IMG/VR virus record: IMGVR_UViG_3300023116_008583
Location: 1 to 64,000 of that record
Length of the DNA: 64,000 bases
Direction: 5' to 3' (one strand)
DNA from: a virus
Part shown: positions 24,386-49,271 of the stretch, in pieces
Position numbering within the stretch: position 1 is the first letter of the stretch
Layout: each line of letters begins with the position of its first letter
Made by a program: the position numbers and the translations under genes
The notes under the pieces: model-generated
Database searches by the model: none
Told to the model about the DNA's origin: nothing
Seen by the model: only the letters and a program-made list of their open reading frames with translations

Positions 24386-24769
24386 ATGTCAGAAACATCT
24401 TCTGATAGATTAGATGCCATTTTCTTTCTGCAGGAAAGATTTATGGAACAGCTTTCCCAGAACAAAGAGCCTCTACCTGAGTGGCCTGTGGACCCTTCTG
24501 ATAAGAAGGCACAGCAGTTCATTCGTGATATCATTCACAGAGGTACTGAAGAAGCATTTGAAGCACTTCTTCATCTTAAGAACTGGAAGCCTCACAAGCA
24601 CACTGAGAACAAAGAATTTGATCGAGATGCGTTTCTCGAGGAGATGATTGACGATTTCACATATAAGCTGGAAGCGTTGATTTTGATGGGTTATGAGCCA
24701 AAAGAATTTTTTAACGCATTTTGCGAAAAGAATAGAAGAAATCTGGACAGGGTCAGAGGAGAATACTAA
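24386..24769 (+). CDS. All-alpha NTP pyrophosphatase (dimeric dUTPase / T4 gp56 dCTPase-like)
   Basis: EEAFE..WKPHK..LEEMIDD..EKNRRNLDR..Y acidic helix pattern. Confidence 0.75.
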   Translation: MSETSSDRLDAIFFLQERFMEQLSQNKEPLPEWPVDPSDKKAQQFIRDIIHRGTEEAFEALLHLKNWKPHKHTENKEFDRDAFLEEMIDDFTYKLEALILMGYEPKEFFNAFCEKNRRNLDRVRGEY

Positions 24770-24770
24770 C

Positions 24771-25700
24771 CTGCTCGAGTATCTGTTCAGAACTCAGAAA
24801 AGCTTTTCTTCTAAATTTATTGATCAAGAGAATCTCTCCCTTGAAGAAAAAGAGCGCCTTACACAAGAGTTTGCGCTCGCTCTTCATAATGAAGTTTCTT
24901 CCCTTGTCAGAGAGATTAACTTTAAACATCACGCAAGTGAAAGAAAAGATATTGTAAAGAATTCGATCTTGTTCGAAGGGATTGACTGTTTTCGTTATCT
25001 TTTGGCGATTATGAACTTGTGGGGCTTTACAGCCGATGAGTTTTTAGAAGCTTTTGATGACAAGGCTGCGTACTTAGATATCAAATACAATAATGACAAA
25101 GAGTGGGCAGGTCAGCCTGTAGTACTTGTTGATGTCGACGATGTAGTAGCAAATTTTAGAGAAGGGTATGCTGATTATTTGAATTCTCTAGACGGAGTCA
25201 ATGTTGATGTAAACTCTAGCGAATACTATTTCACAGAAGGCATACCAAGAGAAAAGTATAATCCTGAGCTGATCTTTCAAGACTTTATTGAAGCAAGAAT
25301 GCTAAGAACTCTAACAGTAGATCAAAGCATGATCAGTGCTGTAAATGATTTATATGATAAAGGGTACTGGATTCATGTTCTGACTGCAAGACCTGACTGG
25401 AACCAGACATGCAAGTATGATACTTACACGTGGCTTTCAAATTCAGGATTGAAGTTTCATCGGATATCTTTTTCTCCTGAGAAGATGATTTGGGCAGCAA
25501 AATCAAAGTATTATGACGGAAATGCAATATTCTGTGCGATAGATGATTCTCCCAAGCACTCCAGAGAATATGCGAAGCATGGTGTGAAGGTAATTTCACC
25601 GAAAAAACCGTACAATTCAGAGCTTGAAAGTGTTGACAATGTCTTTGTGGTAAAAAGCGGAGATGAGGTAGAAGCGGTAATACAAAACTTTAACGGATAG
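24771..25700 (+). CDS. All-alpha NTP-PPase domain fused to HAD 5'(3')-deoxyribonucleotidase
   Basis: N: HNEVSS..FKHH..FEGIDCFRY..DK; C: VDVDDVV, LTAR, K, IDDSP. ORF track starts at 24693; the CTG at 24771 is the inferred start. Confidence 0.7.
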   Translation: MLEYLFRTQKSFSSKFIDQENLSLEEKERLTQEFALALHNEVSSLVREINFKHHASERKDIVKNSILFEGIDCFRYLLAIMNLWGFTADEFLEAFDDKAAYLDIKYNNDKEWAGQPVVLVDVDDVVANFREGYADYLNSLDGVNVDVNSSEYYFTEGIPREKYNPELIFQDFIEARMLRTLTVDQSMISAVNDLYDKGYWIHVLTARPDWNQTCKYDTYTWLSNSGLKFHRISFSPEKMIWAAKSKYYDGNAIFCAIDDSPKHSREYAKHGVKVISPKKPYNSELESVDNVFVVKSGDEVEAVIQNFNG

Positions 25701-25729
25701 GGCATATTTAATTCTGCAGAGGATTTTTT

Positions 25730-26011
25730 ATGTATAGCCTTCCCTATCTCTCTGATATCAGAGAAAAAATTGACAAAAAGATCGAAGAAGATCCTGACTT
25801 CTACGATAACGTAAGAGTCAATGGGTTAAGAAAGGACATTGTAGATCTGCTCAAAGACATGAGAAAATGGGTCGACAAAAAAGATCAAAACCAGATTTTA
25901 GGAAAGAATAGAACATATTTACCCGTGAGAGATTCAAACGCACAAGTTAATGATCTCATACAGCGCCATTCTGATATTGTTGACACAGCCAAGCGTCTAG
26001 GAATTATATAA
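25730..26011 (+). CDS. Hypothetical protein
   Basis: RBS GAGG; coupled to the next gene. Confidence 0.5.
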   Translation: MYSLPYLSDIREKIDKKIEEDPDFYDNVRVNGLRKDIVDLLKDMRKWVDKKDQNQILGKNRTYLPVRDSNAQVNDLIQRHSDIVDTAKRLGII

Positions 26012-26946: not shown

Positions 26947-26947
26947 T

Positions 26948-26976
26948 TTGAACAATCTGATAACATGATGTAGTAT
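26948..26976 (+). promoter_or_regulatory. Possible sigma70-like promoter TTGAAC-N17-TAGTAT
   Basis: Intergenic, before the AGGAG RBS of the ThyX-like gene. Confidence 0.45.
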
Positions 26977-27005
26977 TTCTTATGCTTTCATAGGAGATAA
27001 ACAGC

Positions 27006-27989
27006 ATGCCTCAAAACCCCAATCTTGAACCTGTTACTTTGCCCATGCCTCTTCGGTTTGAAGAGAAGCCGGAAACTGAATTTGTTAACGATCTTGATGC
27101 ACTGCGTGTTGAGCTTGTTGACAGTCCTACTGGCGAGCAAATCCGCAATGTCGCATACCGTTATGTAAAAGCTACCTGGGCTGATTCCCCCGAAGAAACT
27201 GACCCCTTGAATGCCACTCAGCGCGAGCTTTCTGAGACTCTTGAAGATGTCATGCAGTTTCGCGCTCTTCCTGCTGGAATGGAAGCAATGTCCTTCACAT
27301 TCCTCATTGGTGGAATCGATCTCCAGACCGTTACTCACTTGATCCGACATCGAGCCGGCACTTTTGCTGCTCAATGCACCGGTGATCGCTGGCAATCACA
27401 TAGTCGTGCTTTGGTCCCAGCTGCTGTTCAAAACAGTCCTGAAATCTATGATCGCTGGAAGGACCACGTTGAAGCAGGTAAGCAGCTTTACGCAGATATG
27501 ATCGATACCAGGGAGATTAGTATTATGGATGCCCGGACCATTCTGCCACGTGCCATCGAAACCTTTTACTATGCTCGATTTAATCTGAAAGACCTGATCG
27601 GTTTCATTCGGCAGCGATGTGATAAGCAAATTCAGCCCGCAGCAGATAATCTGATGGCTGCTAAGATGGCACTTGAGGTTTGCAAGGTTATCCCAGAGGC
27701 AGCAACTGTTATCGGAACTAAGACTCTGACAGGTCCCGCCATGCACTACGTGCGTAATCTTCGAGCCGGAACCGGAACGAACCTTTATTGGCCCGACGCT
27801 GATACTGACGCTAAGATTGAATACCATCCGAATGATACGATCTATCAGGCTGAAAGAGATGATGTTAACGGTACTAACCCGCCTGAAGATGAAACAGGTG
27901 AAAATAGCAAATTCCGCCAACATTGGAACTCACTGCTAGCACAGATCAATGACATTGAAGTGGAATATCGAGATCGAATGGGTCGATAA
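27006..27989 (+). CDS. Divergent ThyX-like flavin-dependent enzyme
   Basis: E..SFTF.I.GI, THLIRHR-X7-C, DARTILP..T, NLKDL..FIRQR..IQ. Confidence 0.75.
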   Translation: MPQNPNLEPVTLPMPLRFEEKPETEFVNDLDALRVELVDSPTGEQIRNVAYRYVKATWADSPEETDPLNATQRELSETLEDVMQFRALPAGMEAMSFTFLIGGIDLQTVTHLIRHRAGTFAAQCTGDRWQSHSRALVPAAVQNSPEIYDRWKDHVEAGKQLYADMIDTREISIMDARTILPRAIETFYYARFNLKDLIGFIRQRCDKQIQPAADNLMAAKMALEVCKVIPEAATVIGTKTLTGPAMHYVRNLRAGTGTNLYWPDADTDAKIEYHPNDTIYQAERDDVNGTNPPEDETGENSKFRQHWNSLLAQINDIEVEYRDRMGR

Positions 27990-27990
27990 A

Positions 27991-28263: not shown

Positions 28264-28273
28264 GAAATTAAAT

Positions 28274-28489: not shown

Positions 28490-28637
28490 TCTAAATCCAG
28501 AAATCTTAAGAGTTATGTTAATGGCTGCTATTATAGAGCTAGAGGAAACTAAAAGAAAGAATTCTTTATACTCTGTGCTTATACCCTTTATGTTTACAGT
28601 AGGCCTAGGCGTAGGCTTCTACATTGGAATTTCATAA
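28473..28637 (+). CDS. Small membrane protein (54 aa, below the track cutoff)
   Basis: AGGAG then TTG; MLPPDNLNPEILRVMLMAAIIELEETKRKNSLYSVLIPFMFTVGLGVGFYIGIS*; C-terminal TM helix; fills the gap. Confidence 0.55.
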   Translation: MLPPDNLNPEILRVMLMAAIIELEETKRKNSLYSVLIPFMFTVGLGVGFYIGIS

Positions 28638-28650
28638 TTTTGGAGAAAAA

Positions 28651-29088
28651 ATGAAAGTTTATATCGCATCACCTTTTTTCAATCCTAAGCAAGTTGATCA
28701 AGTCGAGTTTATGAAGAATGCTTTGACTGCAACTGGTCATGAGTATTTTAGTCCAAAGGATTTTTTCGTTCTCAAACCAAATGCAACTCAAGAAGATCGT
28801 CAACGCATCTTTGATGTGAACTGCGAAAAGATTCAGTGGGCTGATTTTGTTCTTTGCAATACTGAGGCAAAAGATCTCGGTACTATTTGGGAAGCAGGAT
28901 ATGCTTATGGCATCAATAAGCCTGTTGTTTTCTTTGCAGAAGGTCTCCCGGATGGAAAGTTCAATGTGATGCTTAGTGAAGCAGGACAATCTGTTAATAC
29001 GACCAGAGATCAGCTTGTCGATTATCTAGACCGTGTAAATGAATCTGGAGAGCTTATAATTGAACAGTACACGGGGTTCACGCAGTAA
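28651..29088 (+). CDS. Nucleoside 2-deoxyribosyltransferase / nucleotide N-glycosidase family
   Basis: KVYIASPFF, FSP, IF..N..I..AD, DLGTIWEAGYA, NVML; ATG at 28651 after GGAG. Confidence 0.85.
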   Translation: MKVYIASPFFNPKQVDQVEFMKNALTATGHEYFSPKDFFVLKPNATQEDRQRIFDVNCEKIQWADFVLCNTEAKDLGTIWEAGYAYGINKPVVFFAEGLPDGKFNVMLSEAGQSVNTTRDQLVDYLDRVNESGELIIEQYTGFTQ

Positions 29089-29776: not shown

Positions 29777-29966
29777 CGAAAGAAAGCCTATTTTGGAAGA
29801 TGAGAGCATTCTTTGGCCCGGAACAAAGATCGTGGTTAAAGAAACCAAGGAGCAAGGAATAATCTTGCACTCTCTCAGATACGGTGAAACTTATTCCGTT
29901 CAAACACCCTCAGGTAACGTTTTAACTCTTAAGAAAACAGATATGGAGATCATGTCATGCGAGTAA
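29766..29966 (+). CDS. Small SH3/KOW-like hypothetical protein
   Basis: PGTKIVVK..GII..Y.V pattern; overlaps neighbours. Confidence 0.4.
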   Translation: MTTNERKPILEDESILWPGTKIVVKETKEQGIILHSLRYGETYSVQTPSGNVLTLKKTDMEIMSCE

Positions 29967-30928
29967 TGATTACAGGTGAAGAAGGATTTATCGCAAAGAA
30001 TCTACCTGCCTCTTTTGATGCTCTTGGGCACGAGTTTGTTCCGTTTTTGAACAACAAGAATTTGGTGTGCCTTGATACGGGCGAACCTTGTGTGTATAGA
30101 AACACAGAAGATGACTGGGCTAGAGAGTTATCTGCCAACGAAATTGATTTAGTAGTGCACAATGCTGCGGTTGTGGGAACTGATGTTGTTGCCCTTAACA
30201 GTTCTGAGTCTACGCAATCTAATGTGACAGGAACATACAATATTTGTAGAGCTGCAAAAAAATTGAATATTCCAGTTTGCTATATCGGAACTACAGTGAT
30301 TTACGATACAGCTGCATATCAAAGAAACGTCATTCACGAAACGTCAGCGAGATTTCCAAGAACTCTTTATGGAATTCAAAAAAGAGCATCTGAAGATATC
30401 GTGATGTCAGTTTGCAAGGACTATAATATCGTGAGGCCTCTGTTTGCTTACGGAGGTGTCGGCGACATGAACAGCCTAATATCGAAGACTTTTTATGCTG
30501 CTACTAAGGGTGTAGAACAAATAGATATGTTTCTTGACCCAGCTAAAGTCAAGGATTACATGCATGTTGAAGATTTCTGCGATGGAGTTGCACTAGCGTG
30601 TCACAACCAGGCATGGGGCACTAGTTTTAATATCGCTGCAGAAAACCCCTATGATACTCGAGAAATCGTAAGGGTGATGGAAAGAGTTTCAAAATTAGAT
30701 TTGATGCATAAGATAAAATGGCATCCCGAAACTGACTATCTTGGGAATCACAGACTGTCTTCAGAAAAGTTTAAGTTAGCGTTTAACTGGAAACCTAAGT
30801 ATACCCTCAAGTCAGGAATTCAAGCAGCTTGGAATTCAATCTCAGCTTCTGAAGATACAAGCTATGATCCTCTTAAATACCTGAACGAAGCAAAAGAAAA
30901 AGGTGTAGATCTAACTCAATTTTACTAG
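29957..30928 (+). CDS. NAD-dependent epimerase/dehydratase (extended SDR)
   Basis: ITGEEGFIA, HNAA, YGIQK (YxxxK), KDYMHVED, FNIA. Confidence 0.85.
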   Translation: MRVMITGEEGFIAKNLPASFDALGHEFVPFLNNKNLVCLDTGEPCVYRNTEDDWARELSANEIDLVVHNAAVVGTDVVALNSSESTQSNVTGTYNICRAAKKLNIPVCYIGTTVIYDTAAYQRNVIHETSARFPRTLYGIQKRASEDIVMSVCKDYNIVRPLFAYGGVGDMNSLISKTFYAATKGVEQIDMFLDPAKVKDYMHVEDFCDGVALACHNQAWGTSFNIAAENPYDTREIVRVMERVSKLDLMHKIKWHPETDYLGNHRLSSEKFKLAFNWKPKYTLKSGIQAAWNSISASEDTSYDPLKYLNEAKEKGVDLTQFY

Positions 30929-38700: not shown

Positions 38701-39671
38701 TTTCTGCTCGTCCATTTAAGAACTTGAATGATCTTTTCTATGACAGTGAAGGTGAGTGGCGGCATTCTAAAGTGAACAAGACTTGCTTTGAAGCGCTATG
38801 TCAGATTGAAGCGCTCTCTTCTCTCGAGGAGTTCAAGGAAGGAAAACTCGATAATCATAGACAGCTCCTTCACATCATCTCAGAAAACTATGAAAAGATC
38901 AGGAAAGGTCGAACAGGAGAAGACAAGCTCCGTGAACGCCTAGTTCGAATCGGCGAGCAAATCAAAGATGAGTTCGACAAGATCTTGCGCGTTTACGAGA
39001 AGACTAAGATGTCCGATTTGCAAGAACAAGCGTATCAACATATCTTTAATTGCAGTATCGTTGACTGGTGCTACAGTGAGCATGCAGCAGATTTAGTCAA
39101 AGACATAGGGCATCCGAACCATAAGCGACAAGCTCAACTCGATAAATGCTTCGAAAGGCTTGCAAACTACTATGCCAGAAGAGATAAACTCGCAGACAGA
39201 ATAGAGTCACTATTCAATATTGACACTTCTATTCTAGGTGTCTCTCACATCAAGGATTGGTCAAGAGATGAAAAGATAGTCTTGTACCAACAAATAACGT
39301 CAGCTATTAATAACGCGCTGGTCTTTCCTGTAGAAGTTATGCGTAGAATTGAGAAAGCTGATGTTAAGTCTATATGTGAAATGGTGGGCGGAGATAAAGG
39401 TGTTGCCTGGGGTTGTGCAACTGAGATCATTAAAAAGAAGACCAAAAACGGCAAGGAATTTTACCGAATCAGAATGATGGACGACCAGAACAGGACAGCA
39501 TGGCTTCGTGTTTGGGGCAAGTTCTTTGATTGGGGTGAAGAGCGAGGTCAAAAGATCTATTATGAACCGCAACCCTTTTCCTACTGGCTTGTGGAAACCG
39601 AAGTAGATCCAAACTGGGGTGCATCTTCAGCCGCCTGGAAAATGAGAAAGATACCGCTTTATGATGATTAA
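35742..39671 (+). CDS. dnaE: DNA polymerase III alpha subunit (family C)
   Basis: PHP HGHS..DG..TDHG, DSHY, RGSGGGS, PDIDSD, GRHAGG, KFDFLGL, FNKSHA, C-terminal OB. Confidence 0.95.
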   Translation: MSFKNFKVPNRFVGLHGHSGFSTYDGLGYPADHIDFVLENQMDAWGLTDHGHGSGLAHAHKHFEKMKKSGRKYRQVYGVEFYFVEDLDEWKRQYENHKARIKAERDAKKIEALATTDVNVDNEDELMSEGHTIENEDESKQGSKGKPEWMRRYHLVVTARDPKGLANLFTLVKRGYKDGFYRFPRIDFKMLKEFGEGLNVSTACVGGIFSGRTFQEFPDLTFDELGPELLDDPVKKARLMKTLGNLTDRFVDAVGEDNFFYELQFNKLSAQHMVNRALIELHDQTGINLITTCDSHYPTPNKWEARELYKKLGWMGKEMTPLPEFDDLKCELYPKNASQVWDEFELGWNKYDFYKGREDIVKDSIERTHDQVWDRYQDMWVDSKAKLPNYAVPQKSHPCYPSAPEETPFQQLALKVKNAMISTGLASKPEYVARVKEELDDIKFLGFENYFLTMHDVFHLAAEKTLFGPARGSGGGSLVNYLLGITQVDPIPYGLLWSRFLGRHRTSWPDIDSDAGDRDALIDAARELFGEDAVIPVSNFNTLKLKSIVKDVAKFYDVPFQEVNALTGPLQSEVEPHARDANTEKSVFVLTHEDCMKYSKKYKDFMEKYPDVEKHVSTLFMEQRSIGRHAGGVLIADERELEQTMPLISVRGDLQTPWTEGMNFRNLEDNGFIKFDFLGLTLMKDVENCIRRILIKNGNPSPTFLQIRDFFDEHLNCRYIGQDDQKVWENTYHNASFAPGIFQFTAQGARNFCHQAKPRNIEELAAITAIYRPGPLKANVHVKYVEAGKDIENIQYAHPIIEEVLGPTRGFITFQEQFMTLAVKLAGFSPGESDKMRKTLVKKSLDTIGKKGSERDQLRKQFVEGAERLHGLDPKDMNDLFDKIEFFSLYGFNKSHAVAYAIDSYYAAWLYTYHPREWIATVLESENNSPQGLAKAIRESKALGYKFAPADVNYSGDEWTYNKELQALMPPLSSIKGLGDKAMDEILSARPFKNLNDLFYDSEGEWRHSKVNKTCFEALCQIEALSSLEEFKEGKLDNHRQLLHIISENYEKIRKGRTGEDKLRERLVRIGEQIKDEFDKILRVYEKTKMSDLQEQAYQHIFNCSIVDWCYSEHAADLVKDIGHPNHKRQAQLDKCFERLANYYARRDKLADRIESLFNIDTSILGVSHIKDWSRDEKIVLYQQITSAINNALVFPVEVMRRIEKADVKSICEMVGGDKGVAWGCATEIIKKKTKNGKEFYRIRMMDDQNRTAWLRVWGKFFDWGEERGQKIYYEPQPFSYWLVETEVDPNWGASSAAWKMRKIPLYDD

Positions 39672-39855
39672 GCCAGGTGAACTAGTTCGAATAACAAAAA
39701 CCGCTGTACAAGATAGTAGGTTTTTGAACAAGGTTGGAGTGTTAATACGTGACGACGGAGTGGATGATTGTGGAATTCCAGAAGTATTCATTCTTGTTGA
39801 AAGTGATATAATATGCGTATATCCTGATGGATATGAGATTGTGGAGAAAAATTGA
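39661..39855 (+). CDS. Small SH3/KOW-like hypothetical protein
   Basis: IKPGELVRI..VGVLI. Confidence 0.45.
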   Translation: MMIKPGELVRITKTAVQDSRFLNKVGVLIRDDGVDDCGIPEVFILVESDIICVYPDGYEIVEKN

Positions 39856-40763
39856 TAACCTTTCCCGTCAATAAAATCGTTTTAGAGGGTTGCGACCTCT
39901 CAGGAAAGACAACGCTTTACAACGAGATACACAAAAGGTCAGGGTTTAGGTGGAACATGGATGATAGATCCGGTGTTTCAATGTGTGTTTACGCTAACCT
40001 TTATAATCGGGATGATTTTTATCACCGAAATAATCTCCATTTGGAGATGTCGAACTTAAACAACCAGTTTGTTCTTCTGTACCCAGACATTCATACCATT
40101 CATGAAAGATTTTTAAGCAGAGGTGATGAAGCACAAGATATCTCTTCTTTGAGCGACCTTCACGTTCTTTTTGGAAAAGAGCTTGAAAGATATTGCATGC
40201 TACCTAATTTTCATATTTTCCAGACCGGAAAACCAGAAGAACAAGCACAAGAAGTTGTAAGAAGATGTCGGAGGCTTGAAAATATCTCCATAGACACAAT
40301 CGGAAATTATGTCAGAGAGTTTGCCAAATTTCAGCCTAACAGAGAATCCACTACAGTTCAATTTCACTTTTATGATGACGGGACCTTTGGCACAGTTAAC
40401 GAAGCAATTCTTTCAACTCCTGGTGAAGAAGAATACTACCAAAAGATCAGGCAGAACTTCCTTCAAAAGATTGAAAATGAGCTTAAGGGAAACAATCACT
40501 ACGGTAGAAAAGAGACGCCTGAATCTAGGCGGTTTGTGTTTGCAGGCGAAGAATGCATATCGTTCATTCAGGCAGTATTTAGAGATGATCTACTTGATGT
40601 GCACGCTGTGTTTAGATCTTCCGATACCGAGCACAAGACAGGAACAGACGTTCAGCTGATACACATGCTTGGAAGAGATGTATTTAGAATTCTTAATCTA
40701 GACCCGGCCCAACACAAGGCTAGATTTCGATTTAATGTTAATAGTGCACACGTGCTAATCTAG
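39852..40763 (+). CDS. dNMP-kinase (P-loop) fused to a minimal thymidylate-synthase / dCMP-hydroxymethylase-fold domain
   Basis: N: LEGCDLSGKTT, DR, RF..RGDE; C: PESRR, C, FIQ, FRSSD-X7-D, NSAH. Confidence 0.7.
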   Translation: MITFPVNKIVLEGCDLSGKTTLYNEIHKRSGFRWNMDDRSGVSMCVYANLYNRDDFYHRNNLHLEMSNLNNQFVLLYPDIHTIHERFLSRGDEAQDISSLSDLHVLFGKELERYCMLPNFHIFQTGKPEEQAQEVVRRCRRLENISIDTIGNYVREFAKFQPNRESTTVQFHFYDDGTFGTVNEAILSTPGEEEYYQKIRQNFLQKIENELKGNNHYGRKETPESRRFVFAGEECISFIQAVFRDDLLDVHAVFRSSDTEHKTGTDVQLIHMLGRDVFRILNLDPAQHKARFRFNVNSAHVLI

Positions 40764-41214: not shown

Positions 41215-42141
41215 ATGAGAAGAGCACTAGTTACAGGTGCAGCAGGATTTATAGGATCAAATCTGGTCAAAAGGCTCTTGGCAGAAGGCTGGGATGTTGT
41301 AGGCGTAGATGACCTTAGCTCGGGACACCTTGAGCTACTTGACGGTGTTAGAGGACTGCGGCTTGTTATAAACGATTTCGCCTGCAAATCGATAATCGAA
41401 TCCATTGAGTGTCAAGAATTTGATGTCGTCTTTCACTTGGCGGCAATTCCAAGAGTAAGTTTCTCAGTTGAGAATCCTGCGCTTACCACTGACGTCAATG
41501 TCGCGAGAACAGTCTGTCTTATGGAGGCATGCCGCGGAAACGTAGAGAGGTTTGTGTATTCATCTTCTTCGTCGGTTTATGGAGGAGCGGATACTCTTCC
41601 TACACCAGTGACATATCCCAGAGATCCTAAGTCTCCATACGCATGGCAGAAATCTTGCATAGAAGATCTTCTTAGAACTTTTGGAAACTTGTACGATTTT
41701 GACTCCGTGTGCCTAAGATATTTTAATGTCTTTGGTCCCAGTCAATATGGTGACTCTCCTTACTCGACTGCAATCTCTGCGTGGTGTCATGCTGTTAAAA
41801 ACGGAACGCCTCTTCGCAAAGATGGATCAGGAGAGCAAAGTAGAGATATGTGTTATGTCGATAATGTTGTAGATGTAAACATTCGTGCAGCAAATCACGA
41901 AGGAACATTTAGAGGTGAAGCTTTCAATGTGGCATGCGGCGATCGAACAAGCAATAACGAAATCCTCGATGCCTTTAAAGAGAGGTTCGGAGATTTACAA
42001 ATAGATGAGGCACCGTTTAGGCCTGGAGATGTTATGCACACTCAGGCAGACATTTCAGAAACTGAACGTGTATTTGGTTATAAACCACTTGTTCGTTTTT
42101 GGGAAGGCCTTGAGAAAACTTTTGACTGGTGGGACATTTAA
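41215..42141 (+). CDS. NDP-sugar 4-epimerase (GalE/WbpP-like SDR)
   Basis: TGAAGFIG, HLAA, SSSSVYG, SPYAWQK, LRYFNVFGP, GEQSRD, RPGDV. Confidence 0.92.
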   Translation: MRRALVTGAAGFIGSNLVKRLLAEGWDVVGVDDLSSGHLELLDGVRGLRLVINDFACKSIIESIECQEFDVVFHLAAIPRVSFSVENPALTTDVNVARTVCLMEACRGNVERFVYSSSSSVYGGADTLPTPVTYPRDPKSPYAWQKSCIEDLLRTFGNLYDFDSVCLRYFNVFGPSQYGDSPYSTAISAWCHAVKNGTPLRKDGSGEQSRDMCYVDNVVDVNIRAANHEGTFRGEAFNVACGDRTSNNEILDAFKERFGDLQIDEAPFRPGDVMHTQADISETERVFGYKPLVRFWEGLEKTFDWWDI

Positions 42142-44659: not shown

Positions 44660-44727
44660 TTTAAACATAATAAAAGAATAAAAAAACCTCGAATGTGTTA
44701 TAATCATTTATATCACATGGAGAAATA

Positions 44728-45756
44728 GTGAAGATCCTTGAAACTCTGTCTTACGACGACGTCCTGCTAGTTCCGCAATACAGCGATATTCGATCCCGAA
44801 CAGAATGCGATACTTCAGTAAAGCTAGGCCCAGGAGTTGAACTATCGATTCCTGTTATCTCTTCTTGTATGGACACAGTAACAGAAGATGTGATGGCTGC
44901 TGCAATGAGCCTGATGGGCGGGTTAGGTGTTATTCACAGGTATAATTCACCTCAAGAACAGTCTGAGTTGGTCCAGATCGCTGTCAAATTAGTAGAGCAT
45001 GCCGCCCCGATAGGCGCTGCAATTGGAGTCACGGATGATTTTATGGAAAGGGCTGAACTTTTGGTCCATGCTGGAGTCTCTGCTCTCTGTGTTGATGTAG
45101 CGCATGGTCATCATATTCTGGTTAAGGAAGCACTGGAAAATCTTAGAAGTAAATTTGGAAATAATCTGTGTATCATCGCAGGAAATGTTGCGACACTACA
45201 AGGAATAAACGACCTCGCAGACTGGGGTGCAAACGCTGTAAGGTGCAATATTGGGGGAGGATCAATTTGCAGTACAAGAATTCAGACTGGGCATGGTGTG
45301 CCAGGTCTCCAGACAATCTTTGACTGTGCCCAAACTGATCGAGACGTTAAAATTATCGCTGACGGCGGTATTAAGAACAGCGGTGATGCTACAAAGGCAC
45401 TAGCAGCAGGATCAGACTGTATTATGCTAGGTTCTATGCTTTCTGGGACTGATGAATCTCCCGGCGATATCATTTATAGCAACGGTCAAAAGAGGAAAGC
45501 TTATAGGGGCATGGCAAGCCCTGAAGCACAGTTTGACTGGAGGGGCAGAGCCAGCTCTCTAGAAGGTATTTCAACAACTGTTCCTTATAAAGGCAGCGTA
45601 AAAGATATAATTAATACGTTGATGCAGGGCATAAGAAGTGGCTTTTCCTATTCAGGAAGTCGAACTTTAAGTGAGCTGCATGCAAAAGCAAAGTTTGTGA
45701 AACAAACAGGAGCAGGAGCTGTAGAAAGTGGGACTCATATTCTCTCAAGTAACTAA
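44728..45756 (+). CDS. IMP dehydrogenase / GMP reductase (no CBS domains)
   Basis: LSYDDVLLVP, MDTVTE, DVAHGH, AGNVAT, GSICSTR, ADGGI, YRGMAS, EG. Confidence 0.92.
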   Translation: MKILETLSYDDVLLVPQYSDIRSRTECDTSVKLGPGVELSIPVISSCMDTVTEDVMAAAMSLMGGLGVIHRYNSPQEQSELVQIAVKLVEHAAPIGAAIGVTDDFMERAELLVHAGVSALCVDVAHGHHILVKEALENLRSKFGNNLCIIAGNVATLQGINDLADWGANAVRCNIGGGSICSTRIQTGHGVPGLQTIFDCAQTDRDVKIIADGGIKNSGDATKALAAGSDCIMLGSMLSGTDESPGDIIYSNGQKRKAYRGMASPEAQFDWRGRASSLEGISTTVPYKGSVKDIINTLMQGIRSGFSYSGSRTLSELHAKAKFVKQTGAGAVESGTHILSSN

Positions 45757-46426: not shown

Positions 46427-46626
46427 TAAAAACTGGTGATCTAAAAAAGTTTAAAAAGGCAATTGAGGAAGCAATCAGAGATTTGCCTAGCGACATTAAT
46501 ATGGGCTCTCATTCTGCCAGAAGCTACGCCAGAGACAAGATCTATGACAGACTGATGGATGAGTTTCAGGTTCGACCACCTCAGCCCAGTGATATTCCCC
46601 CGCTTGAGATTGAAATGGAAATTTAA
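46423..46626 (+). CDS. Hypothetical protein
   Basis: Coupled ORF. Confidence 0.45.
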   Translation: MIKTGDLKKFKKAIEEAIRDLPSDINMGSHSARSYARDKIYDRLMDEFQVRPPQPSDIPPLEIEMEI

Positions 46627-46812
46627 ATGAGCCGGCGTCATAGGCGCATCTTACTAAACAACGACATTTATAAGATTATAATGAAGGTGTTCAACCGAAA
46701 GGGTAGATTCTGGTTAGTGCGTGTCCCGTGTTTAAAAAGATTTTTAGCGCATGAGATTGCCAATGAAGTTTCTAAGAGAGTTGAAGAGGAAATAGAGCGT
46801 GAGACATCCTGA
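46627..46812 (+). CDS. Hypothetical protein
   Basis: Coupled ORF. Confidence 0.4.
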   Translation: MSRRHRRILLNNDIYKIIMKVFNRKGRFWLVRVPCLKRFLAHEIANEVSKRVEEEIERETS

Positions 46813-47371
46813 GTTCATCATATTTACGGGACCTATGTTTGGATCTAAGACTACTCGGCTCATGGCAGTAGTTGATAGATTTAAGTACCAGAATAGAAAG
46901 GTGCTTGCATTTAAGCCGAAAATGGATGACAGATATGATCAAGCTGATATCGTAACTCACAACGGAGGAAAGATAACAGCAAGCACGATACACGATGCCG
47001 CAGAGATATTCATGCACTTGGCAGAATCAGATGACAACTATGATGTTGTAGCCGTAGATGAAGCGTTTATGATCAGTGGTATTGCAGATGTTCTCATATG
47101 GCTTTACCAGCGAGGAATAACAGTTGTAGTTTCTTCTTTGGATATGTCAGCCACATGTAAGCCGTTTGATGAGCTGCAGAAGATGATGCCTTGGGCTACA
47201 AAAATCGAGAAGTGTCCAGCTGTTTGTCCCGTTTGTAGTAGAGATGCCTACTATACTTATAAAAAGAATAATGATGGCATTGAGATCGCTGTGGGTGGTG
47301 CTGAGCTTTACGAGCCGAGATGCTTTGATCACCACCCCCTTATGAATAAGAGAGAGTACAATGATACCTAA
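46799..47371 (+). CDS. tdk: Thymidine kinase (type II)
   Basis: GPMFGSKTT, FKP..DDRY, VDEA, C..C..YEPRC..H. Confidence 0.92.
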   Translation: MRHPEFIIFTGPMFGSKTTRLMAVVDRFKYQNRKVLAFKPKMDDRYDQADIVTHNGGKITASTIHDAAEIFMHLAESDDNYDVVAVDEAFMISGIADVLIWLYQRGITVVVSSLDMSATCKPFDELQKMMPWATKIEKCPAVCPVCSRDAYYTYKKNNDGIEIAVGGAELYEPRCFDHHPLMNKREYNDT

Positions 47372-48236
47372 CCCCAGGGACGTAGATCTTGTCATTTATC
47401 ACAAGAACTGCACAGACGGTTTTGGAGCAGCATACTCTGCCTGGAGGCTTCTGGGCAATAGAGCTGAGTACGTTGCTTGTGCTCATGGAGAAGATCCGCC
47501 AGATGTAAAAGGAAAGAAAGTTGCCATTTGTGACTTTTCTTTTAAGAATTCTGTTACAAAGAAAATGATCGAAGATGCGGACGCGCTGGTTGTGCTCGAT
47601 CATCACAAATCAGCAATGGTTGAACTGCATGATATTCCTGACGCAATTTTCAACATGGAAAAATCAGGTGCTGTGATCACTTGGGAATTCTTTCATCCCG
47701 GCAAAGATGTGCCAAAATTCATCCAGTATATCGAGGATAGAGATTTGTGGAAGTGGGATCTTCCTTATTCAAAGGAGTTCGCAGCCGCTTTTGATATGGT
47801 GCCTTTTGCATTTGAAGAGTTTGAGAAGTTTGAAGATGACTCTGTGTTTGACGACGCAGTTAAAAGAGGTAGTTACATTCTTGCCTACTCAAAAACAGTT
47901 GTTAAAAAGATTGCAGATAAAGCGATTCCAAGAAAACTTGCAGGACACGAAGCACTTGTTGTTAACGCCTCACACTGGATGTCGGAGATAGGAAACGCTC
48001 TCTCACCTCACTGTGACCTTGCTCTCATTTGGTTTCACGATCACGAAGACAAGAAAATTCGAGTAAGCTTAAGAGCATTCCATGACAACATAGATGCGTC
48101 AGAGATCGCTAAGCAGTTCGGTGGAGGCGGTCATAAGTCTGCTGCAGGCTTTACATGGGAAAAGAATATTGAAGAGCTTTTTGACAAGCCAAAGAGAAGA
48201 ACAAAAAAGTCAGCACAAAAAAGCAAAGATGATTGA
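47361..48236 (+). CDS. DHH/DHHA1 phosphoesterase
   Basis: YHKNCTDG, DFS, LDHH, EDRDLW, SLR, GGGGHKSAAGF. Confidence 0.88.
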   Translation: MIPNPRDVDLVIYHKNCTDGFGAAYSAWRLLGNRAEYVACAHGEDPPDVKGKKVAICDFSFKNSVTKKMIEDADALVVLDHHKSAMVELHDIPDAIFNMEKSGAVITWEFFHPGKDVPKFIQYIEDRDLWKWDLPYSKEFAAAFDMVPFAFEEFEKFEDDSVFDDAVKRGSYILAYSKTVVKKIADKAIPRKLAGHEALVVNASHWMSEIGNALSPHCDLALIWFHDHEDKKIRVSLRAFHDNIDASEIAKQFGGGGHKSAAGFTWEKNIEELFDKPKRRTKKSAQKSKDD

Positions 48237-48778
48237 AAGGAATCTCTATGAAGTACTTATTGATGCTTAGTCTAATGTTATTGCCTGCTGTATCGCAGGC
48301 CGAAGAGCAACGAATCGGTTTCGTTGCAGGTTCAACTTATGGTGTAGGGTTAGGCTACAGTAAGCAACATAAGGATGGCACTGGGTGGCAAGTCTCAGCC
48401 CTACCTATTGTTGAGGACGACTTTGACGCCACAGTCTTTCTTGGTGGAACTTACTTCAAGACGCTCAACGCCACATCTTGGGGTCGAGCTTACTGGTCAT
48501 TCGGCGCCGCTGCGTTCTACAGCCGGAACACCGATGAACGGTTTGAGTGGATTTGTGACGATGCTCGTGAAAACTGTCGAGATGTTAGCCTGGGATCAAC
48601 ACTGGACGAAGGTGTTGTACTTTCTTTCGGTCCGGGTGTAGGCTTGGAGCGCCGCTGGAAGCAGTTTGCGCTGTCTCTGGAGCTTCCTCTTGCCATTCAG
48701 GTTGGTTATGCTGCGCACAAGCCACGCTTCTTCGGCGTGCATCCCATTCCTAACTTTTCCCTGATGTATTTCTGGTAA
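48233..48778 (+). CDS. Exported outer-membrane beta-barrel-like protein
   Basis: Signal peptide ending SQA; alternating amphipathic Gly/aromatic strands; terminal aromatic (SLMYFW). Confidence 0.55.
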   Translation: MKGISMKYLLMLSLMLLPAVSQAEEQRIGFVAGSTYGVGLGYSKQHKDGTGWQVSALPIVEDDFDATVFLGGTYFKTLNATSWGRAYWSFGAAAFYSRNTDERFEWICDDARENCRDVSLGSTLDEGVVLSFGPGVGLERRWKQFALSLELPLAIQVGYAAHKPRFFGVHPIPNFSLMYFW

Positions 48779-48779
48779 G

Positions 48780-49271
48780 ATGCCAAAGTTTCCTGATGAT
48801 CCAAATTGCTATGACTGCGGGTGCGATAGTAAGCCAGCGTGTCCGGGCTATCAGGAAGATGGGCGTCCTGAATGGGATAATGTGTGGATGAAAGTTACTC
48901 ACAATGTAGCTGAACGCTCTTATGACCCTAGGCATAAAGTAGGTACCATTATCGTTACTGAGGATAACACGCAGTTGCTTTCCTTGGGATATAACGGTAA
49001 CTATAAAGGCGGCCCAAACAGAGCTGAATCAGATCAACCTGGTGAATCTGGATTTATACACGCAGAGCAGAATGCACTTATTAAACTAGATTTTAACAAC
49101 CCAAAAGTAAAAAAGATGTACATTACGCTAAGTCCTTGTTCACATTGTGCCAAAATGATTGTTAACTCGAACATTGACGAAGTGATATACGATCAAGAGT
49201 ATAGAGACTCTCGAGGACTAGGCATTCTTCGAGAAGCAGGAGTTAAGGTAAGACAGTACAGTGCTTCGTAA
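48780..49271 (+). CDS. dCMP deaminase
   Basis: RS.D..KVG, GYNG, HAEQNA, SPCSHC. Confidence 0.9.
   Translation: MPKFPDDPNCYDCGCDSKPACPGYQEDGRPEWDNVWMKVTHNVAERSYDPRHKVGTIIVTEDNTQLLSLGYNGNYKGGPNRAESDQPGESGFIHAEQNALIKLDFNNPKVKKMYITLSPCSHCAKMIVNSNIDEVIYDQEYRDSRGLGILREAGVKVRQYSAS

What the first reader, a model, noticed from the sequence alone, without database searches (positions are those of the whole stretch)
24386..49271. Candidate undescribed pyrimidine DNA-modification pathway dispersed across the window
The window holds every step of the T4 logic (destroy dCTP, modify dCMP, phosphorylate it, shunt the excess to dTMP) built from non-orthologous parts. Seen: two all-alpha NTP-PPases (24386, 24771) despite an intact trimeric dUTPase, a deoxyribonucleotidase, an atypical ThyX, a nucleotide N-glycosidase/NDT, the kinase-TS(Asp) fusion, dCMP deaminase, thymidine kinase, two NDP-sugar epimerases, a PLP aminotransferase, its own DnaE, and PD-(D/E)XK nucleases (30941, 59599) that could cut unmodified DNA. 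Inference: a modified and possibly glycosylated cytosine. Limit: no glycosyltransferase is visible here, and the epimerases could serve virion or surface glycosylation instead.
Basis: inference. Interest (0 to 1): 0.78.

Follow-up and report, generated by a model that had tools for sequence, protein, structure and literature searches.

The report
Phage kinase-mini-thymidylate-synthase pyrimidine module
A fragment of a giant uncultured marine phage carries a conserved set of pyrimidine-nucleotide enzymes around its DNA polymerase gene, centred on a kinase fused to a stripped-down, cytosine-type thymidylate-synthase-like enzyme; this probably (unproven) puts an altered cytosine into the phage's DNA, and a cultured Geobacillus phage has the same parts and could be used to test it.

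Summary
The listed genes are real. The key gene is 39852-40763. It joins a YorR/TMK-like kinase to a 160-residue thymidylate-synthase (TS) fold domain (AF2 pLDDT 94; Z 12.7 to MilA, 11.9 to the dCMP hydroxylase AfhB). That domain keeps the catalytic Cys and the Tyr94, Arg126/127, Arg166/Ser167 and His207 equivalents. It has an invariant Asp at the cytosine-selecting Asn177 position, but lacks TS's folate-binding segments.

The family is large (329 clusters at E<=1e-10) and unannotated. It sits next to the phage replicative polymerase gene in every locus fetched here.

In more than 100 viral contigs the "dispersed" genes form one syntenic block: MazG-like, MazG-HAD, Cys-type ThyX, NDT, DnaE, kinase-TS, epimerase, TK, DHH, dCMP deaminase. 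The core recurs with non-orthologous parts in a PolB phage. It also recurs, split into separate kinase and mini-TS genes, in cultured Geobacillus phage GR1.

A conserved, polymerase-linked pyrimidine pathway is therefore well supported. A C5-modified cytosine in DNA is the best reading but is unproven (~0.5), and the chemistry is unknown. Glycosylation, the aminotransferase and the PD-(D/E)XK nucleases are not supported as pathway parts.

The scan found this family before on other genomes and read it the same way. As far as the earlier notes show, the GR1 split form and the D169-marker test are new here.

The parts
13418..13882 (+). Trimeric dUTPase. It gives context for the pool-control argument and is not part of the syntenic block in this window.
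   Evidence: Pfam dUTPase E 5.8e-20.
24386..24769 (+). MazG1: small all-alpha NTP pyrophosphohydrolase (candidate dCTPase; specificity unknown).
   Evidence: phrog_12184 E 3.2e-10 and phrog_173 E 6e-8. EExxE...EExxD is conserved in 26 homologues. Found in 25 of 80 loci, always upstream of ThyX.
24771..25700 (+). MazG2-HAD: all-alpha NTP-PPase-like N-half fused to a HAD 5'(3')-deoxyribonucleotidase-like C-half, which could take a dNTP through dNMP to dN in one protein.
   Evidence: dUTPase_2 E 1.4e-4; phrog_173, phrog_420/415 and phrog_2643. DxDD and other HAD motifs are conserved in 25 homologues, but the first acidic motif of the N-half is degenerate. Present in 4 of 5 near-complete relatives.
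27006..27989 (+). Cys-type ThyX: flavin-dependent thymidylate-synthase homologue with RHRx7C..GDR in place of RHRx7S.
   Evidence: Pfam Thy1 E 6.9e-19; TIGR02170 scores 52.6 bits, below its 87.9 cut-off. No PDB sequence hit. The motif is invariant in 36 loci, L101 and phage GR1. Present in 5 of 5 near-complete relatives.
28624..29088 (+). Nucleoside 2-deoxyribosyltransferase (NDT).
   Evidence: PF05014 E 2e-16. PDB 6evs NDT E 7.7e-14. The catalytic-Glu motif is conserved. It sits next to ThyX in 53 of 53 loci with full flanks.
29957..30928 (+). Epi1: SDR NDP-sugar epimerase/dehydratase-like protein. It is a variable member, often directly upstream of DnaE.
   Evidence: PF01370 E 2e-25; all NCBIfam hits are far below their cut-offs. 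Found in 31 of 80 loci.
35742..39671 (+). Phage DnaE (Pol III alpha-type replicative polymerase).
   Evidence: PHP, DNA_pol3_alpha, finger and HHH_6 domains. Upstream of the fusion gene in 80 of 80 loci; in about half the gap is under 100 nt.
39852..40763 (+). KIN-TS: YorR/TMK-like P-loop kinase (residues ~4-145) fused to a minimal TS-fold domain (residues ~146-303). The TS domain carries Cys235, Arg226/227, Arg255/Ser256, Asp258, Asp266 (the Asn177 position), Tyr217 (the Tyr94 motif) and His300.
   Evidence: AF2 pLDDT 94.6 for the whole protein and 94.4 for the C-domain. VIA Z 14.3 to YorR 3kb2. Z 12.7 to MilA, 11.9 to AfhB and ~11 to TSs. The residues are invariant in 76 homologues. No Pfam hit.
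41215..42141 (+). Epi2: SDR NDP-sugar 4-epimerase/dehydratase-like protein, directly downstream of KIN-TS in most relatives. Its role is unknown.
   Evidence: PF01370 E 2e-51. TviC and GalE models score 164 and 148 bits, below their cut-offs. Found in 63 of 80 loci.
46799..47371 (+). Thymidine kinase.
   Evidence: PF00265 E 1.9e-38. Found in 65 of 80 loci.
47361..48236 (+). DHH/DHHA1 phosphoesterase (RecJ/NrnA-like).
   Evidence: DHHA1 E 2e-9 and DHH E 1.8e-4. Found in 52 of 80 loci at 66-70% identity.
48780..49271 (+). dCMP deaminase.
   Evidence: PF00383 E 8e-20. Found in 63 of 80 loci.
49631..50323 (+). Fe/Mn superoxide-dismutase-like protein. It is a conserved downstream neighbour; whether it belongs to the pathway is uncertain.
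   Evidence: Sod_Fe_C E 9e-17. Found in 58 of 80 loci.

Best explanation
The window is part of a ~300-kb marine (salt-marsh and seawater) jumbo phage. Around its replicative polymerase gene it carries a conserved pyrimidine deoxynucleotide module.

Shown:
- The protein at 39852-40763 is a P-loop nucleoside/nucleotide kinase of the YorR/TMK class fused to a minimal TS-fold domain.
- That domain keeps the Michael-addition machinery of the TS family (Cys146, Tyr94, Glu58-like Glu192, Arg126/127, Arg166/Ser167 and His207 equivalents). It has an invariant Asp where TS has Asn177.
- The gene lies next to the phage polymerase gene in all loci fetched.
- MazG-like NTP-PPases, a 5'-deoxynucleotidase, NDT, a Cys-type ThyX, TK and dCMP deaminase travel with it.

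From established knowledge: Asn177->Asp switches TS-family enzymes from dUMP to dCMP (T4 gp42, MilA, 5hodCMP synthases; PMC13326640).

Inferred:
- The TS-like domain attacks C6 of dCMP and adds a substituent at C5. Hydroxymethyl, hydroxyl or methyl cannot be told apart.
- The fused kinase either makes the dCMP from deoxycytidine or phosphorylates the product towards the triphosphate.
- The phage DnaE incorporates the product.
- The MazG-like enzymes and the nucleotidase drain the canonical dCTP pool or unwanted by-products.
- dCMP deaminase, ThyX and TK keep dTTP supplied.
- NDT and the nucleotidase recycle deoxyribose.

The epimerases may or may not feed a later glycosylation.
For: Structure:
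- The N-domain matches YorR 3kb2 at Z 14.3 over 138 residues, and the family profile hits YorR at E 2.7e-7.
- The C-domain matches MilA 5b6e at Z 12.7, AfhB 9iqu at Z 11.9 and TSs at Z ~11, each over ~143 of 160 residues. AfhB is also Foldseek's top hit for the whole model.
- The register is exact: Cys to Arg is 20 residues and Arg to Asp is 11, as in E. coli TS. hhalign against RB69 gp48 lines up SRR / C / RS / D / SAH. A three-way alignment with T4 gp42 shares SRR, C, (I/F)RD, RS, D and SxHV.

Conservation:
- The P-loop, DR, the LID Arg/Gly/Asp, E192, R226, C235, R255, S256, D266 and H300 are invariant in 76 sequences that go down to 28% identity. G213/N215/Y217 are kept in 68-74 of 76.
- The six TS residues are still invariant in members at 19-25% identity.
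- The family is large: 1451 clusters at E<=1e-3 and 329 at E<=1e-10.

Synteny:
- DnaE precedes KIN-TS in 80 of 80 loci.
- The conserved order is Fpg, u77, MazG1, MazG2-HAD, ThyX, NDT, DnaE, KIN-TS, Epi2, TK, DHH, dCMP deaminase, within ~14 kb in compact relatives.
- Distant subfamilies keep MazG2-HAD and RNR followed by DnaE and KIN-TS.

Non-orthologous displacement:
- In L101 the genes run NDT, HD (YfbR-type) deoxynucleotidase, Cys-ThyX, KIN-TS, PolB, each with a 4-nt overlap.

Domain fission:
- Cultured Geobacillus phage GR1 has NDT, HD nucleotidase, a separate kinase (hhalign 97.9%, E 6e-13), a nitroreductase flavoprotein, Cys-ThyX, then a separate mini-TS (96.6%, E 5e-10), DnaE and a dUTPase_2 enzyme.

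Precedent:
- Three unrelated 5hoC phages keep a YorR/TMK-like kinase gene next to the TS homologue (PMC13326640).

Other:
- One relative has a canonical TMK as well as the fusion.
- ThyX plus a TS-like gene in the same genome argues that the latter is not the dTMP synthase (for the usual anticorrelation).
Against: - There is no direct evidence that virion DNA is modified. Only assembled contigs of short-read runs were available.
- The TS-like domain lacks the W80/W83 segment and the C-terminal tail that bind folate in TS, so no cofactor can be assigned.
- Pfam TS does not detect the domain.
- The D169N marker of 5hodCMP synthases is D here. It flips D/N/E at least 11 times on the family tree.
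- Every accessory enzyme (MazG, nucleotidase, NDT, TK, deaminase, ThyX, DHH, GMP reductase) also fits plain dNTP salvage and pool rebalancing.
- Much of the co-occurrence is lineage-wide inheritance.
- The phage encodes Fpg/Nei, HhH-GPD and UvdE repair enzymes. Nei/Fpg-type enzymes are known to remove 5-hydroxycytosine, which is awkward for an unglycosylated 5hoC genome.
- No glycosyltransferase lies near the module.
- KIN-TS evolves faster than its neighbours. That could mean an arms race or weaker constraint.
Confidence: 0.5

Rival explanations
1. This is ordinary dNTP salvage and pool rebalancing with no base modification in DNA. Host nucleic acid is broken down by DHH and nucleases. dNMPs are dephosphorylated by the HAD or HD nucleotidase, bases are swapped by NDT, and nucleosides are re-phosphorylated by TK and the fused kinase, which JGI annotates as 'deoxyadenosine/deoxycytidine kinase'. 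C is converted to T by dCMP deaminase and ThyX, and G to A by GMP reductase, to suit a 43% GC genome. The TS-like domain would be a dCMP-binding regulatory or channelling module.
For: - The nucleotidase, NDT and kinase recur together even when the nucleotidase type changes between HAD and HD.
- The best PDB match of the NDT is a true nucleoside deoxyribosyltransferase.
- The kinase fold matches deoxynucleoside kinases nearly as well as TMKs, and JGI names it as one.
- GMP reductase is inserted between DnaE and KIN-TS in some relatives.
- The DNA is readily recovered by standard shotgun sequencing in 18 studies.
Against: - A merely regulatory domain would not keep Cys146, Tyr94, Arg126/127, Arg166/Ser167, His207 and Asp177 equivalents invariant down to 17-25% identity.
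- The mini-TS persists as a free-standing gene right after ThyX in GR1.
- No canonical pathway needs C5 chemistry on a cytosine nucleotide.
Confidence: 0.28
2. The mini-TS and the Cys-type ThyX work as a pair, either as a complex or in consecutive steps, to make canonical dTMP by an unusual route. One such route is dCMP to 5-methyl-dCMP followed by deamination. So the product is ordinary thymidylate, not a new base.
For: - ThyX(Cys) and the mini-TS or KIN-TS gene overlap by 1-4 nt in L101 and GR1.
- The two families share contigs in nearly every long contig and in 5 of 5 near-complete genomes.
- dCMP deaminase is a constant partner.
- No DHFR is found in 5 relatives.
- The mini-TS lacks its own folate site.
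Against: - This is a roundabout route when dCMP deaminase plus any ThyX already gives dTMP.
- It does not explain why a kinase is fused, or why two extra NTP-PPases are kept beside a trimeric dUTPase.
- No biochemical precedent exists.
Confidence: 0.1
3. The C5-modified cytosine is further glycosylated on DNA, using NDP-sugars made by the two epimerases (and the phosphomannomutase at 68280-69062 of the record).
For: - Epi2 sits directly after KIN-TS in 63 of 80 loci.
- A PMM-family gene lies in the same record.
- GT1/GT2 islands occur in 4 of 5 near-complete relatives.
- GR1 has a GenBank-annotated glycosyltransferase inside its cluster.
- In the RB69 and DLP3 clusters, sugar-activation and GT genes sit next to the TS homologue.
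Against: - No GT is found in the 90-kb record.
- The GT islands lie more than 80 kb from the module and hold 5-10 GT genes each, which looks like glycan or polysaccharide synthesis.
- The 87%-complete relative G002 has Epi1 and Epi2 but no GT1 or GT2.
- GR1's 'glycosyltransferase' has no Pfam or PDB support and no homologue in the marine loci.
- The aminotransferase is an amino-acid type.
Confidence: 0.12
4. Thymine rather than cytosine is replaced, as in SPO1 or phi-e (5hmU). The NTP-PPase and nucleotidase would destroy dTTP and dTMP, the deaminase would supply dUMP, and the TS-like domain would hydroxymethylate dUMP.
For: The set of NTP-PPase, 5'-nucleotidase, dCMP deaminase, TS homologue and kinase is also the classical 5hmU set (established knowledge of SPO1/phi-e).
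Against: - Asp is invariant, never Asn, at the Asn177 position in all 76 plus the distant members.
- ThyX and TK, both of which make dTMP, are constant partners.
Confidence: 0.04

Closest known systems
5-hydroxy-dCMP pathway of phages RB69 (gp48), DLP3 (gp80), RL38J1 (gp216) and HY126 (AfhB; PDB 9iqu, 9iqc); PMC13326640
   Same: - A TS-fold enzyme with the catalytic Cys and Asp at the Asn177 position, ending just after the SAH(V/I) strand.
- It is the best Foldseek hit and tied for best by VIA.
- A YorR/TMK-like kinase is genetically coupled to it: adjacent in those phages, fused here.
- A MazG-type dCTPase is present elsewhere in the genome.
   Different: - The domain here is ~60-80 residues smaller.
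- The diagnostic D169N is not met in this protein and is unstable across the family.
- Sequence similarity is marginal (hhalign E 6e-4).
- No arabinose or sugar-activation genes or GTs lie in the cluster.
- Flavin use is untested.
- The partners Cys-type ThyX and NDT have no counterpart there.
T4 5-hydroxymethylcytosine pathway (gp56 dCTPase, gp42 dCMP hydroxymethylase, gp1 dNMP kinase, cd, td, tk)
   Same: - The overall logic is the same, step by step.
- gp42 shares the SRR, C, IRD, RSxD, D and SxHV motifs, and Asp at both the 169 and 177 positions.
   Different: - gp42 is a 246-residue folate enzyme with the W80-region helices. Here these are replaced by a 16-residue loop.
- The kinase is of the TMK/YorR class rather than gp1, and it is fused.
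- dTMP comes from a ThyX rather than td/frd.
- No alpha- or beta-glucosyltransferase is present.
MilA, CMP 5-hydroxymethylase of mildiomycin biosynthesis (PDB 5b6e, 5jnh)
   Same: - Highest structural Z (12.7, 143 residues, 20% identity).
- It has Asp at the Asn177 position.
- It works with an NDT-fold nucleotide hydrolase (MilB), and an NDT-fold gene also travels with KIN-TS.
   Different: - MilA is a 318-residue ribonucleotide enzyme of an antibiotic pathway.
- It is not linked to a polymerase or to deoxynucleotide enzymes.
YorR of Bacillus prophage SPbeta (PDB 3kb2, 2axp) and thymidylate/deoxynucleoside kinases
   Same: - It is the best structural and sequence match of the N-domain (Z 14.3; E 2.7e-7).
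- The P-loop, DRS and LID RxxxRGD motifs are shared.
   Different: - YorR's own substrate is unknown.
- The domain here is shorter than TMKs and below the Pfam TMK threshold.
- Whether it acts on a nucleoside or a nucleotide is undecided.
Geobacillus phage GR1 (OK896991.1) replication-module genes UDY80701-UDY80713. This is a cultured phage, but the genes are uncharacterised.
   Same: It has the same component set in one cluster: NDT, 5'-deoxynucleotidase, kinase, Cys-type ThyX (49% identical), mini-TS, DnaE and an all-alpha dUTPase_2 enzyme.
   Different: - The kinase and mini-TS are separate genes.
- The nucleotidase is HD-type.
- It has an extra nitroreductase flavoprotein and an annotated glycosyltransferase. 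Elsewhere it has amidoligase and gamma-glutamylcyclotransferase genes.
- It is a 79-kb siphovirus of a thermophilic Firmicute.

Membership tests
Thymidylate synthase / dCMP hydroxymethylase superfamily (TS fold) | TS alpha/beta fold | tested here: met
   The C-domain model (pLDDT 94.4) aligns to MilA at Z 12.7, AfhB at Z 11.9 and many TSs at Z ~11, rmsd ~3 A, over ~143 of 160 residues. 396 chains score Z>=8.
Thymidylate synthase / dCMP hydroxymethylase superfamily (TS fold) | Catalytic Cys146 nucleophile plus phosphate clamp (Arg126', Arg127', Arg166, Ser167) and His207 | tested here: met
   C235, R226, R227, R255, S256 and H300 are invariant or nearly so in 76 homologues and in distant members. 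Spacing is identical to E. coli TS. No Arg21 equivalent was identified.
Thymidylate synthase / dCMP hydroxymethylase superfamily (TS fold) | Match to the family's sequence model (Pfam PF00303) | tested here: not met
   hmmscan finds no Pfam family. PF00303 finds nothing in the 90-kb record at E<=10. The PDB profile search finds no TS.
Thymidylate synthase / dCMP hydroxymethylase superfamily (TS fold) | Folate-binding elements (Trp80/Trp83 segment, C-terminal tail closing on the cofactor) | tested here: not met
   The model spans TS residues 1-210 only and the protein ends 3 residues after the His207 equivalent. TS residues ~66-125 are replaced by a 16-residue loop that keeps only the G-x-N-x-Y (Tyr94) motif.
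5-hydroxy-dCMP synthases (AfhB / RB69 gp48 type) | Asp at the Asn177 position (dCMP substrate) | tested here: met
   D266 is invariant in 76 of 76 and aligns with the gp48 Asp.
5-hydroxy-dCMP synthases (AfhB / RB69 gp48 type) | Asn at the Asp169 position (the D169N diagnostic of PMC13326640) | tested here: not met
   This protein has Asp258. Across the family the position is D in 40, N in 28 and E in 8, with at least 11 changes on the tree.
5-hydroxy-dCMP synthases (AfhB / RB69 gp48 type) | Flavin cofactor and O2-dependent hydroxylation | not testable with these tools
   This needs biochemistry. The only indirect hint is a nitroreductase-family flavoprotein next to ThyX and the mini-TS in phage GR1.
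5-hydroxy-dCMP synthases (AfhB / RB69 gp48 type) | DNA glycosyltransferases and sugar-activation genes in the same cluster | tested here: not met
   None lies within the module in the window or in the 80 loci. Only an SDR epimerase (Epi2) is adjacent.
T4-type dCMP hydroxymethylase (gp42) | Asp at both the 169 and 177 positions, plus a folate site | tested here: inconclusive
   Both Asp residues are present in this protein. The gp42 region between the long helix and SRR is largely missing, and position 169 is not conserved in the family.
TMK / deoxynucleoside-kinase class P-loop kinases (YorR-like) | P-loop, DR(S/Y) motif, Arg-rich LID, kinase fold | tested here: met
   GxDxSGKT, D38-R39-S and R86..R90-G-D are invariant. 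Z 14.3 to YorR and 11-12 to dAK and TMK. Profile E 2.7e-7 to YorR. Pfam TMK is below threshold.
T4-like canonical-dCTP exclusion (dCTPase) | NTP-PPase specific for dCTP | not testable with these tools
   Two all-alpha NTP-PPase homologues are present. Their substrate cannot be read from sequence, and there are no PDB sequence hits.
Canonical ThyX | RHRx7S ThyX motif and a score above the equivalog threshold | tested here: not met
   The motif reads RHRx7C-TGDR. TIGR02170 scores 52.6 bits against a cut-off of 87.9. Only the Pfam Thy1 domain passes.

The most novel reading that the evidence does not exclude
The mini-TS domain has lost its own cofactor site, and the Cys-type ThyX always travels with it. 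Together they may form a two-component enzyme. The ThyX-like flavoprotein would generate the electrophile (a flavin-bound one-carbon unit or flavin hydroperoxide). The mini-TS would hold dCMP as a covalent Cys adduct. The result would be a cytosine derivative, possibly one not yet described. The fused kinase would channel it to the phage's own polymerase, across a very large clade of marine jumbo phages and some Firmicute phages.
Probability: 0.15. Interest if true: 0.9.

Novelty: new variant of a known kind. Interest (0 to 1): 0.66.

Why it matters
If the reading is right, several things follow.
- A very abundant, uncultured clade of marine and salt-marsh giant phages (hundreds of sequence clusters) would replace or decorate cytosine in its DNA. 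The enzyme architecture responsible is one that no annotation pipeline currently recognises.
- That would affect how such phages evade restriction and CRISPR defences, and how well they are recovered and base-called in viromes.
- It would add a compact kinase-plus-modifying enzyme to the toolbox for making modified DNA.
- It would extend the TS superfamily to a 160-residue catalytic core that works without the classical folate site.

Because the same parts occur, unfused, in the cultured Geobacillus phage GR1, the question is directly testable at the bench.

Tried and rejected
Gene neighbourhoods were obtained from IMG/VR loci instead.
- Megablast and tblastn of DnaE and of the fusion against 50,697 phage records gave no close relative and no isolate with the fused gene.
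- Sequence searches of the PDB gave nothing usable for the fusion's TS half, either MazG-like protein or ThyX.
- I tried the D169N rule to predict hydroxylase versus hydroxymethylase and rejected it, because the position flips at least 11 times among orthologues.
- I looked for DHFR (0 of 5 relatives) and a separate TMK (1 of 5) as indirect clues. These are weak.
- Restriction-site avoidance showed only mild depletion of CGCG (O/E 0.68) and GGCC (O/E 0.80), which is uninformative.
- Sequencing runs are all held as assembled contigs of DNA libraries, so no raw-signal or error-profile test of modification was possible.
- Several related-loci queries failed. A6 and A3 failed on viral contigs and A5 on metagenome contigs (no conserved stretch), and P0192 and P0148 returned no relatives.
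- A second homologue search with a diverse profile found no Pfam-TS-labelled bridge proteins.
- The ESM Atlas pointed to a 437-aa viral 'thymidylate kinase/thymidylate synthase' cluster with a full PF00303 domain. I could not fetch it, so it remains a lead only.
- GR1's annotated glycosyltransferase could not be confirmed by Pfam or PDB.
- The paper on GR1 says nothing about DNA modification.

Full report
**What is there**

The record holding the window is a single 90,191-bp IMG/VR contig. CheckV rates it 29% complete, so it is a fragment of a ~300-kb phage. All genes lie on the + strand.

- Two all-alpha NTP-PPase homologues lie at 24386 and 24771. The second is fused to a HAD 5'-nucleotidase-like half.
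- ThyX is at 27006, NDT at 28624, and SDR epimerases at 29957 and 41215.
- A PDDEXK_4 protein is at 30941 and DnaE at 35742.
- TK, DHH and dCMP deaminase lie at 46799-49271.

Three items lie outside the stated range.
- The trimeric dUTPase is at 13418.
- The aminotransferase at 19413 is a class I/II amino-acid enzyme, not a sugar aminotransferase.
- The second 'PD-(D/E)XK' at 59599 shows only the motif.

The rest of the record adds phosphomannomutase, a PLP enzyme, NUDIX, Fpg/Nei, HhH-GPD, UvdE, GroEL, DnaJ and ligase, but no glycosyltransferase.

**The key enzyme**

The 303-aa product of 39852-40763 has no Pfam family. It has full-length homologues only in marine metagenomes.

AlphaFold2 with a 27-sequence alignment gives pLDDT 94.6 and pTM 0.90.
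- Residues 4-150 match the SPbeta protein YorR (Z 14.3), then deoxyadenosine kinase and thymidylate kinases. The family profile hits YorR at E 2.7e-7.
- Residues 144-303, modelled alone (pLDDT 94.4), align over ~143 residues to the CMP hydroxymethylase MilA (Z 12.7), the phage HY126 dCMP hydroxylase AfhB (Z 11.9) and some 390 thymidylate synthase chains (Z 8-11).
- AfhB is also Foldseek's first hit for the whole model.

The motif register is exact. SRR, then Cys235, then Arg255-Ser256 20 residues later, then Asp266 11 residues later, then His300. These match E. coli TS R126/R127, C146, R166/S167, N177 and H207.

hhalign against RB69 gp48 and a three-way alignment with T4 gp42 put Asp266 on the Asp that makes those enzymes dCMP-specific. 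The three proteins also share an (I/F)RD hairpin, a G-x-N-x-Y motif (the TS Tyr94 motif) and SxHV.

Across 76 homologues (down to 28% identity) the kinase P-loop, DR and LID residues are invariant. So are Glu192, Arg226, Cys235, Arg255, Ser256, Asp266 and His300. The six TS residues stay invariant in members at 17-25% identity. Both halves are therefore under catalytic-type constraint.

What is missing is the TS segment around Trp80/Trp83 and helix G, which is replaced by a 16-residue loop, and everything after His207. These are the classical folate site.

**What the literature adds**

PMC13326640 (NAR 2026) shows that TS homologues of RB69, DLP3 and RL38J1 make 5-hydroxy-dCMP using flavin and O2.
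- It proposes N177D plus D169N as the signature.
- In all three clusters a YorR/TMK-like 'nucleotide kinase' gene sits beside the TS homologue.

The fusion here is a Rosetta-stone version of that pairing. However, the D169 position is Asp in this protein. Across the family it is D in 40, N in 28 and E in 8, with at least 11 changes on the tree, some between close relatives. The marker therefore does not transfer, and the chemistry cannot be called.

**Gene neighbourhood**

An IMG/VR scan returned 80 loci.
- DnaE lies upstream of the fusion in all 80. In about half, the gap is under 100 nt.
- Within +/-10 kb, homologues are found of Epi2 (63 loci), TK (65), dCMP deaminase (63), the SOD-like protein (58), DHH (52), NDT (44), ThyX (36), Epi1 (31), MazG2-HAD (30), MazG1 (25) and GMP reductase (23). 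These are lower bounds, because many flanks are cut.
- The PD-(D/E)XK, helicase, M50, DUF2452, 626-aa and ART genes occur only in 2-6 close relatives. The aminotransferase occurs in none.
- In compact relatives the order Fpg, u77, MazG1, MazG2-HAD, ThyX, NDT, DnaE, KIN-TS, Epi2, TK, DHH, dCMP deaminase spans about 14 kb. The 'dispersed' set of the window is thus a stretched copy of one block.
- All five near-complete relatives (200-284 kb) have the Cys-type ThyX, and four have MazG2-HAD.
- A reciprocal scan with ThyX found NDT beside it in 53 of 53 full-flank loci. KIN-TS was within 10 kb in 28 of them. A further 20 lie on contigs already known to carry KIN-TS.

**Beyond shared ancestry**

Three observations lift this above lineage inertia.
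- Distant subfamilies (19-25% identity) keep RNR, MazG2-HAD, DnaE and KIN-TS together.
- In L101 the polymerase is family B and the nucleotidase is an HD (YfbR-type) enzyme. Yet the genes run NDT, nucleotidase, Cys-ThyX, KIN-TS, polymerase, each overlapping the next by 4 nt.
- The cultured Geobacillus phage GR1 (79 kb) has a 49%-identical Cys-type ThyX. Its cluster holds NDT, an HD nucleotidase, an annotated glycosyltransferase, a 145-aa kinase (hhalign 97.9%, E 6e-13 to the N-domain), a nitroreductase flavoprotein and the ThyX. Starting on the ThyX gene's last base is a 151-aa protein homologous to the mini-TS domain (96.6%, E 5e-10; it keeps Cys, Arg-Ser, Asn, Asp and His). DnaE and a dUTPase_2 enzyme follow.

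Fusion in one lineage and fission in another, together with non-orthologous replacement of two partners, is good evidence that the kinase, mini-TS, Cys-ThyX, NDT, nucleotidase and NTP-PPase work together and serve the polymerase.

**What it most likely does**

The conserved Michael-addition set plus Asp at the Asn177 position points to C5 chemistry on a cytosine nucleotide. Adjacency to the polymerase and to deoxynucleotide enzymes points to dCMP.

The simplest reading is the T4/RB69 scheme.
- Canonical dCTP is drained by the NTP-PPases.
- dCMP is modified at C5.
- The product is phosphorylated and incorporated by the phage's own DnaE.
- dTTP is supplied through the deaminase, ThyX and TK.

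I put this at about 0.5.

Several things remain unknown.
- The substituent.
- The cofactor, since there is no folate site. One possibility is that the Cys-type ThyX supplies it.
- Whether the kinase acts before the TS step (on dC) or after it (on modified dCMP). Its fold is equally close to deoxynucleoside kinases, and JGI labels it dAK/dCK.

The main rival (about 0.28) is plain salvage and pool rebalancing. That explains every accessory gene but not the conserved catalytic core of the mini-TS.

**The sugar arm**

- Epi2's constant place after KIN-TS is unexplained.
- GT1/GT2 genes occur in 4 of 5 near-complete relatives, but as large islands more than 80 kb from the module. They are absent from an 87%-complete relative that has both epimerases.
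- GR1's cluster glycosyltransferase rests on its GenBank label alone.

Glycosylation is therefore possible but not supported.

**Other checks**

- DHFR was not found in five relatives, and a separate canonical TMK was found in one.
- Palindrome statistics show no strong restriction avoidance.
- The phage occurs in 13 salt-marsh and several seawater metagenome runs. All are kept as contigs, so no modification signal could be read.
- The family has 1451 clusters at E<=1e-3 and 329 at E<=1e-10, and none carries a functional name.

**Relation to earlier scan notes**

After I had formed this reading, one search showed that follow-up agents had described the same fusion family on at least seven other genomes and reached the same cautious conclusion. 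That is not independent evidence. One note suggested a ThyX/mini-TS enzyme pair. My L101 and GR1 overlaps bear on that idea, and I carry it as the novel case.

As far as I can tell from those notes, three things are new here: GR1 as a cultured, split-gene model; the test of the D169N marker on a tree; and the HAD/HD and DnaE/PolB displacements.

Noticed in passing
L256 (Geobacillus phage GR1, OK896991.1 19752-38660) and L258:1458-2690: Cultured phage GR1 carries the split module. It also carries an amidoligase-family gene and a gamma-glutamylcyclotransferase next to its TK, a second NDT, a flavodoxin and two thioredoxins. To my recollection, amidoligase/GGCT genes accompany known base hypermodification clusters, so GR1 DNA may be hypermodified.
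   Followed up: partly
window 52108-53139: Tubulin/FtsZ-family GTPase homologue (Pfam Tubulin E 3.9e-7, just under the cut-off) among small conserved ORFs downstream of the nucleotide block.
   Followed up: no
window 61613-64000 (runs to 64210 of the record), L001:2716-4314, L001:7816-8850, window 18776-19381: The phage carries a heavy proteostasis load: a Lon-like ATP-dependent protease (phrog_4871 E 4e-211), GroEL, DnaJ and ClpP. IMG/VR flags the record as a provirus, perhaps because of these host-like genes.
   Followed up: no
L001:1466-2269, L001:8816-9268, L001:10531-11541; Fpg also heads the conserved block in relatives (e.g. L041:1106-1906): The phage encodes Fpg/Nei, an HhH-GPD glycosylase and a UvdE UV endonuclease. 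Fpg sits at the upstream end of the nucleotide block in 13 loci. This is an unusual investment in base-excision repair, and it constrains which modified base the DNA could tolerate.
   Followed up: partly
window 39852-40763 versus its neighbours, e.g. L041: KIN-TS is the fastest-evolving gene of the block. It is 28-39% identical where DnaE, DHH, TK, the deaminase and Epi2 are 50-70% identical.
   Followed up: partly
G001:C1:37000-63800, G003:C1:203600-213100, G004:C1:124000-150000, G005:C1:154000-172400: Near-complete relatives carry islands of 5-10 GT1/GT2 glycosyltransferase genes far from the nucleotide module. These look like glycan or polysaccharide synthesis islands.
   Followed up: partly
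window 8835-10031: A short family-A DNA polymerase-like ORF (398 aa, PF00476 E 5e-12) sits alongside the DnaE replicase, next to gp32-like, RecA, FEN and DnaB genes.
   Followed up: no
protein P0177 (254 aa, metagenomic): This is a mini-TS domain preceded by an LpxB-like N-terminus (GEASGDLHG) instead of the kinase. It is either a different fusion or a chimeric assembly.
   Followed up: no
ESM Atlas cluster: A 62-member viral cluster of 437-aa proteins is auto-named 'thymidylate kinase/thymidylate synthase', with a full PF00303 domain. This may be a full-size version of the same kinase-TS fusion. The sequences could not be fetched.
   Followed up: no
window 58586-59179 and 44728-45756: An NMN adenylyltransferase-like protein (TIGR01526 E 2e-10, below the cut-off) and a GMP reductase/IMPDH-family enzyme add further nucleotide and NAD metabolism. 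In some relatives GMP reductase is inserted between DnaE and KIN-TS.
   Followed up: partly
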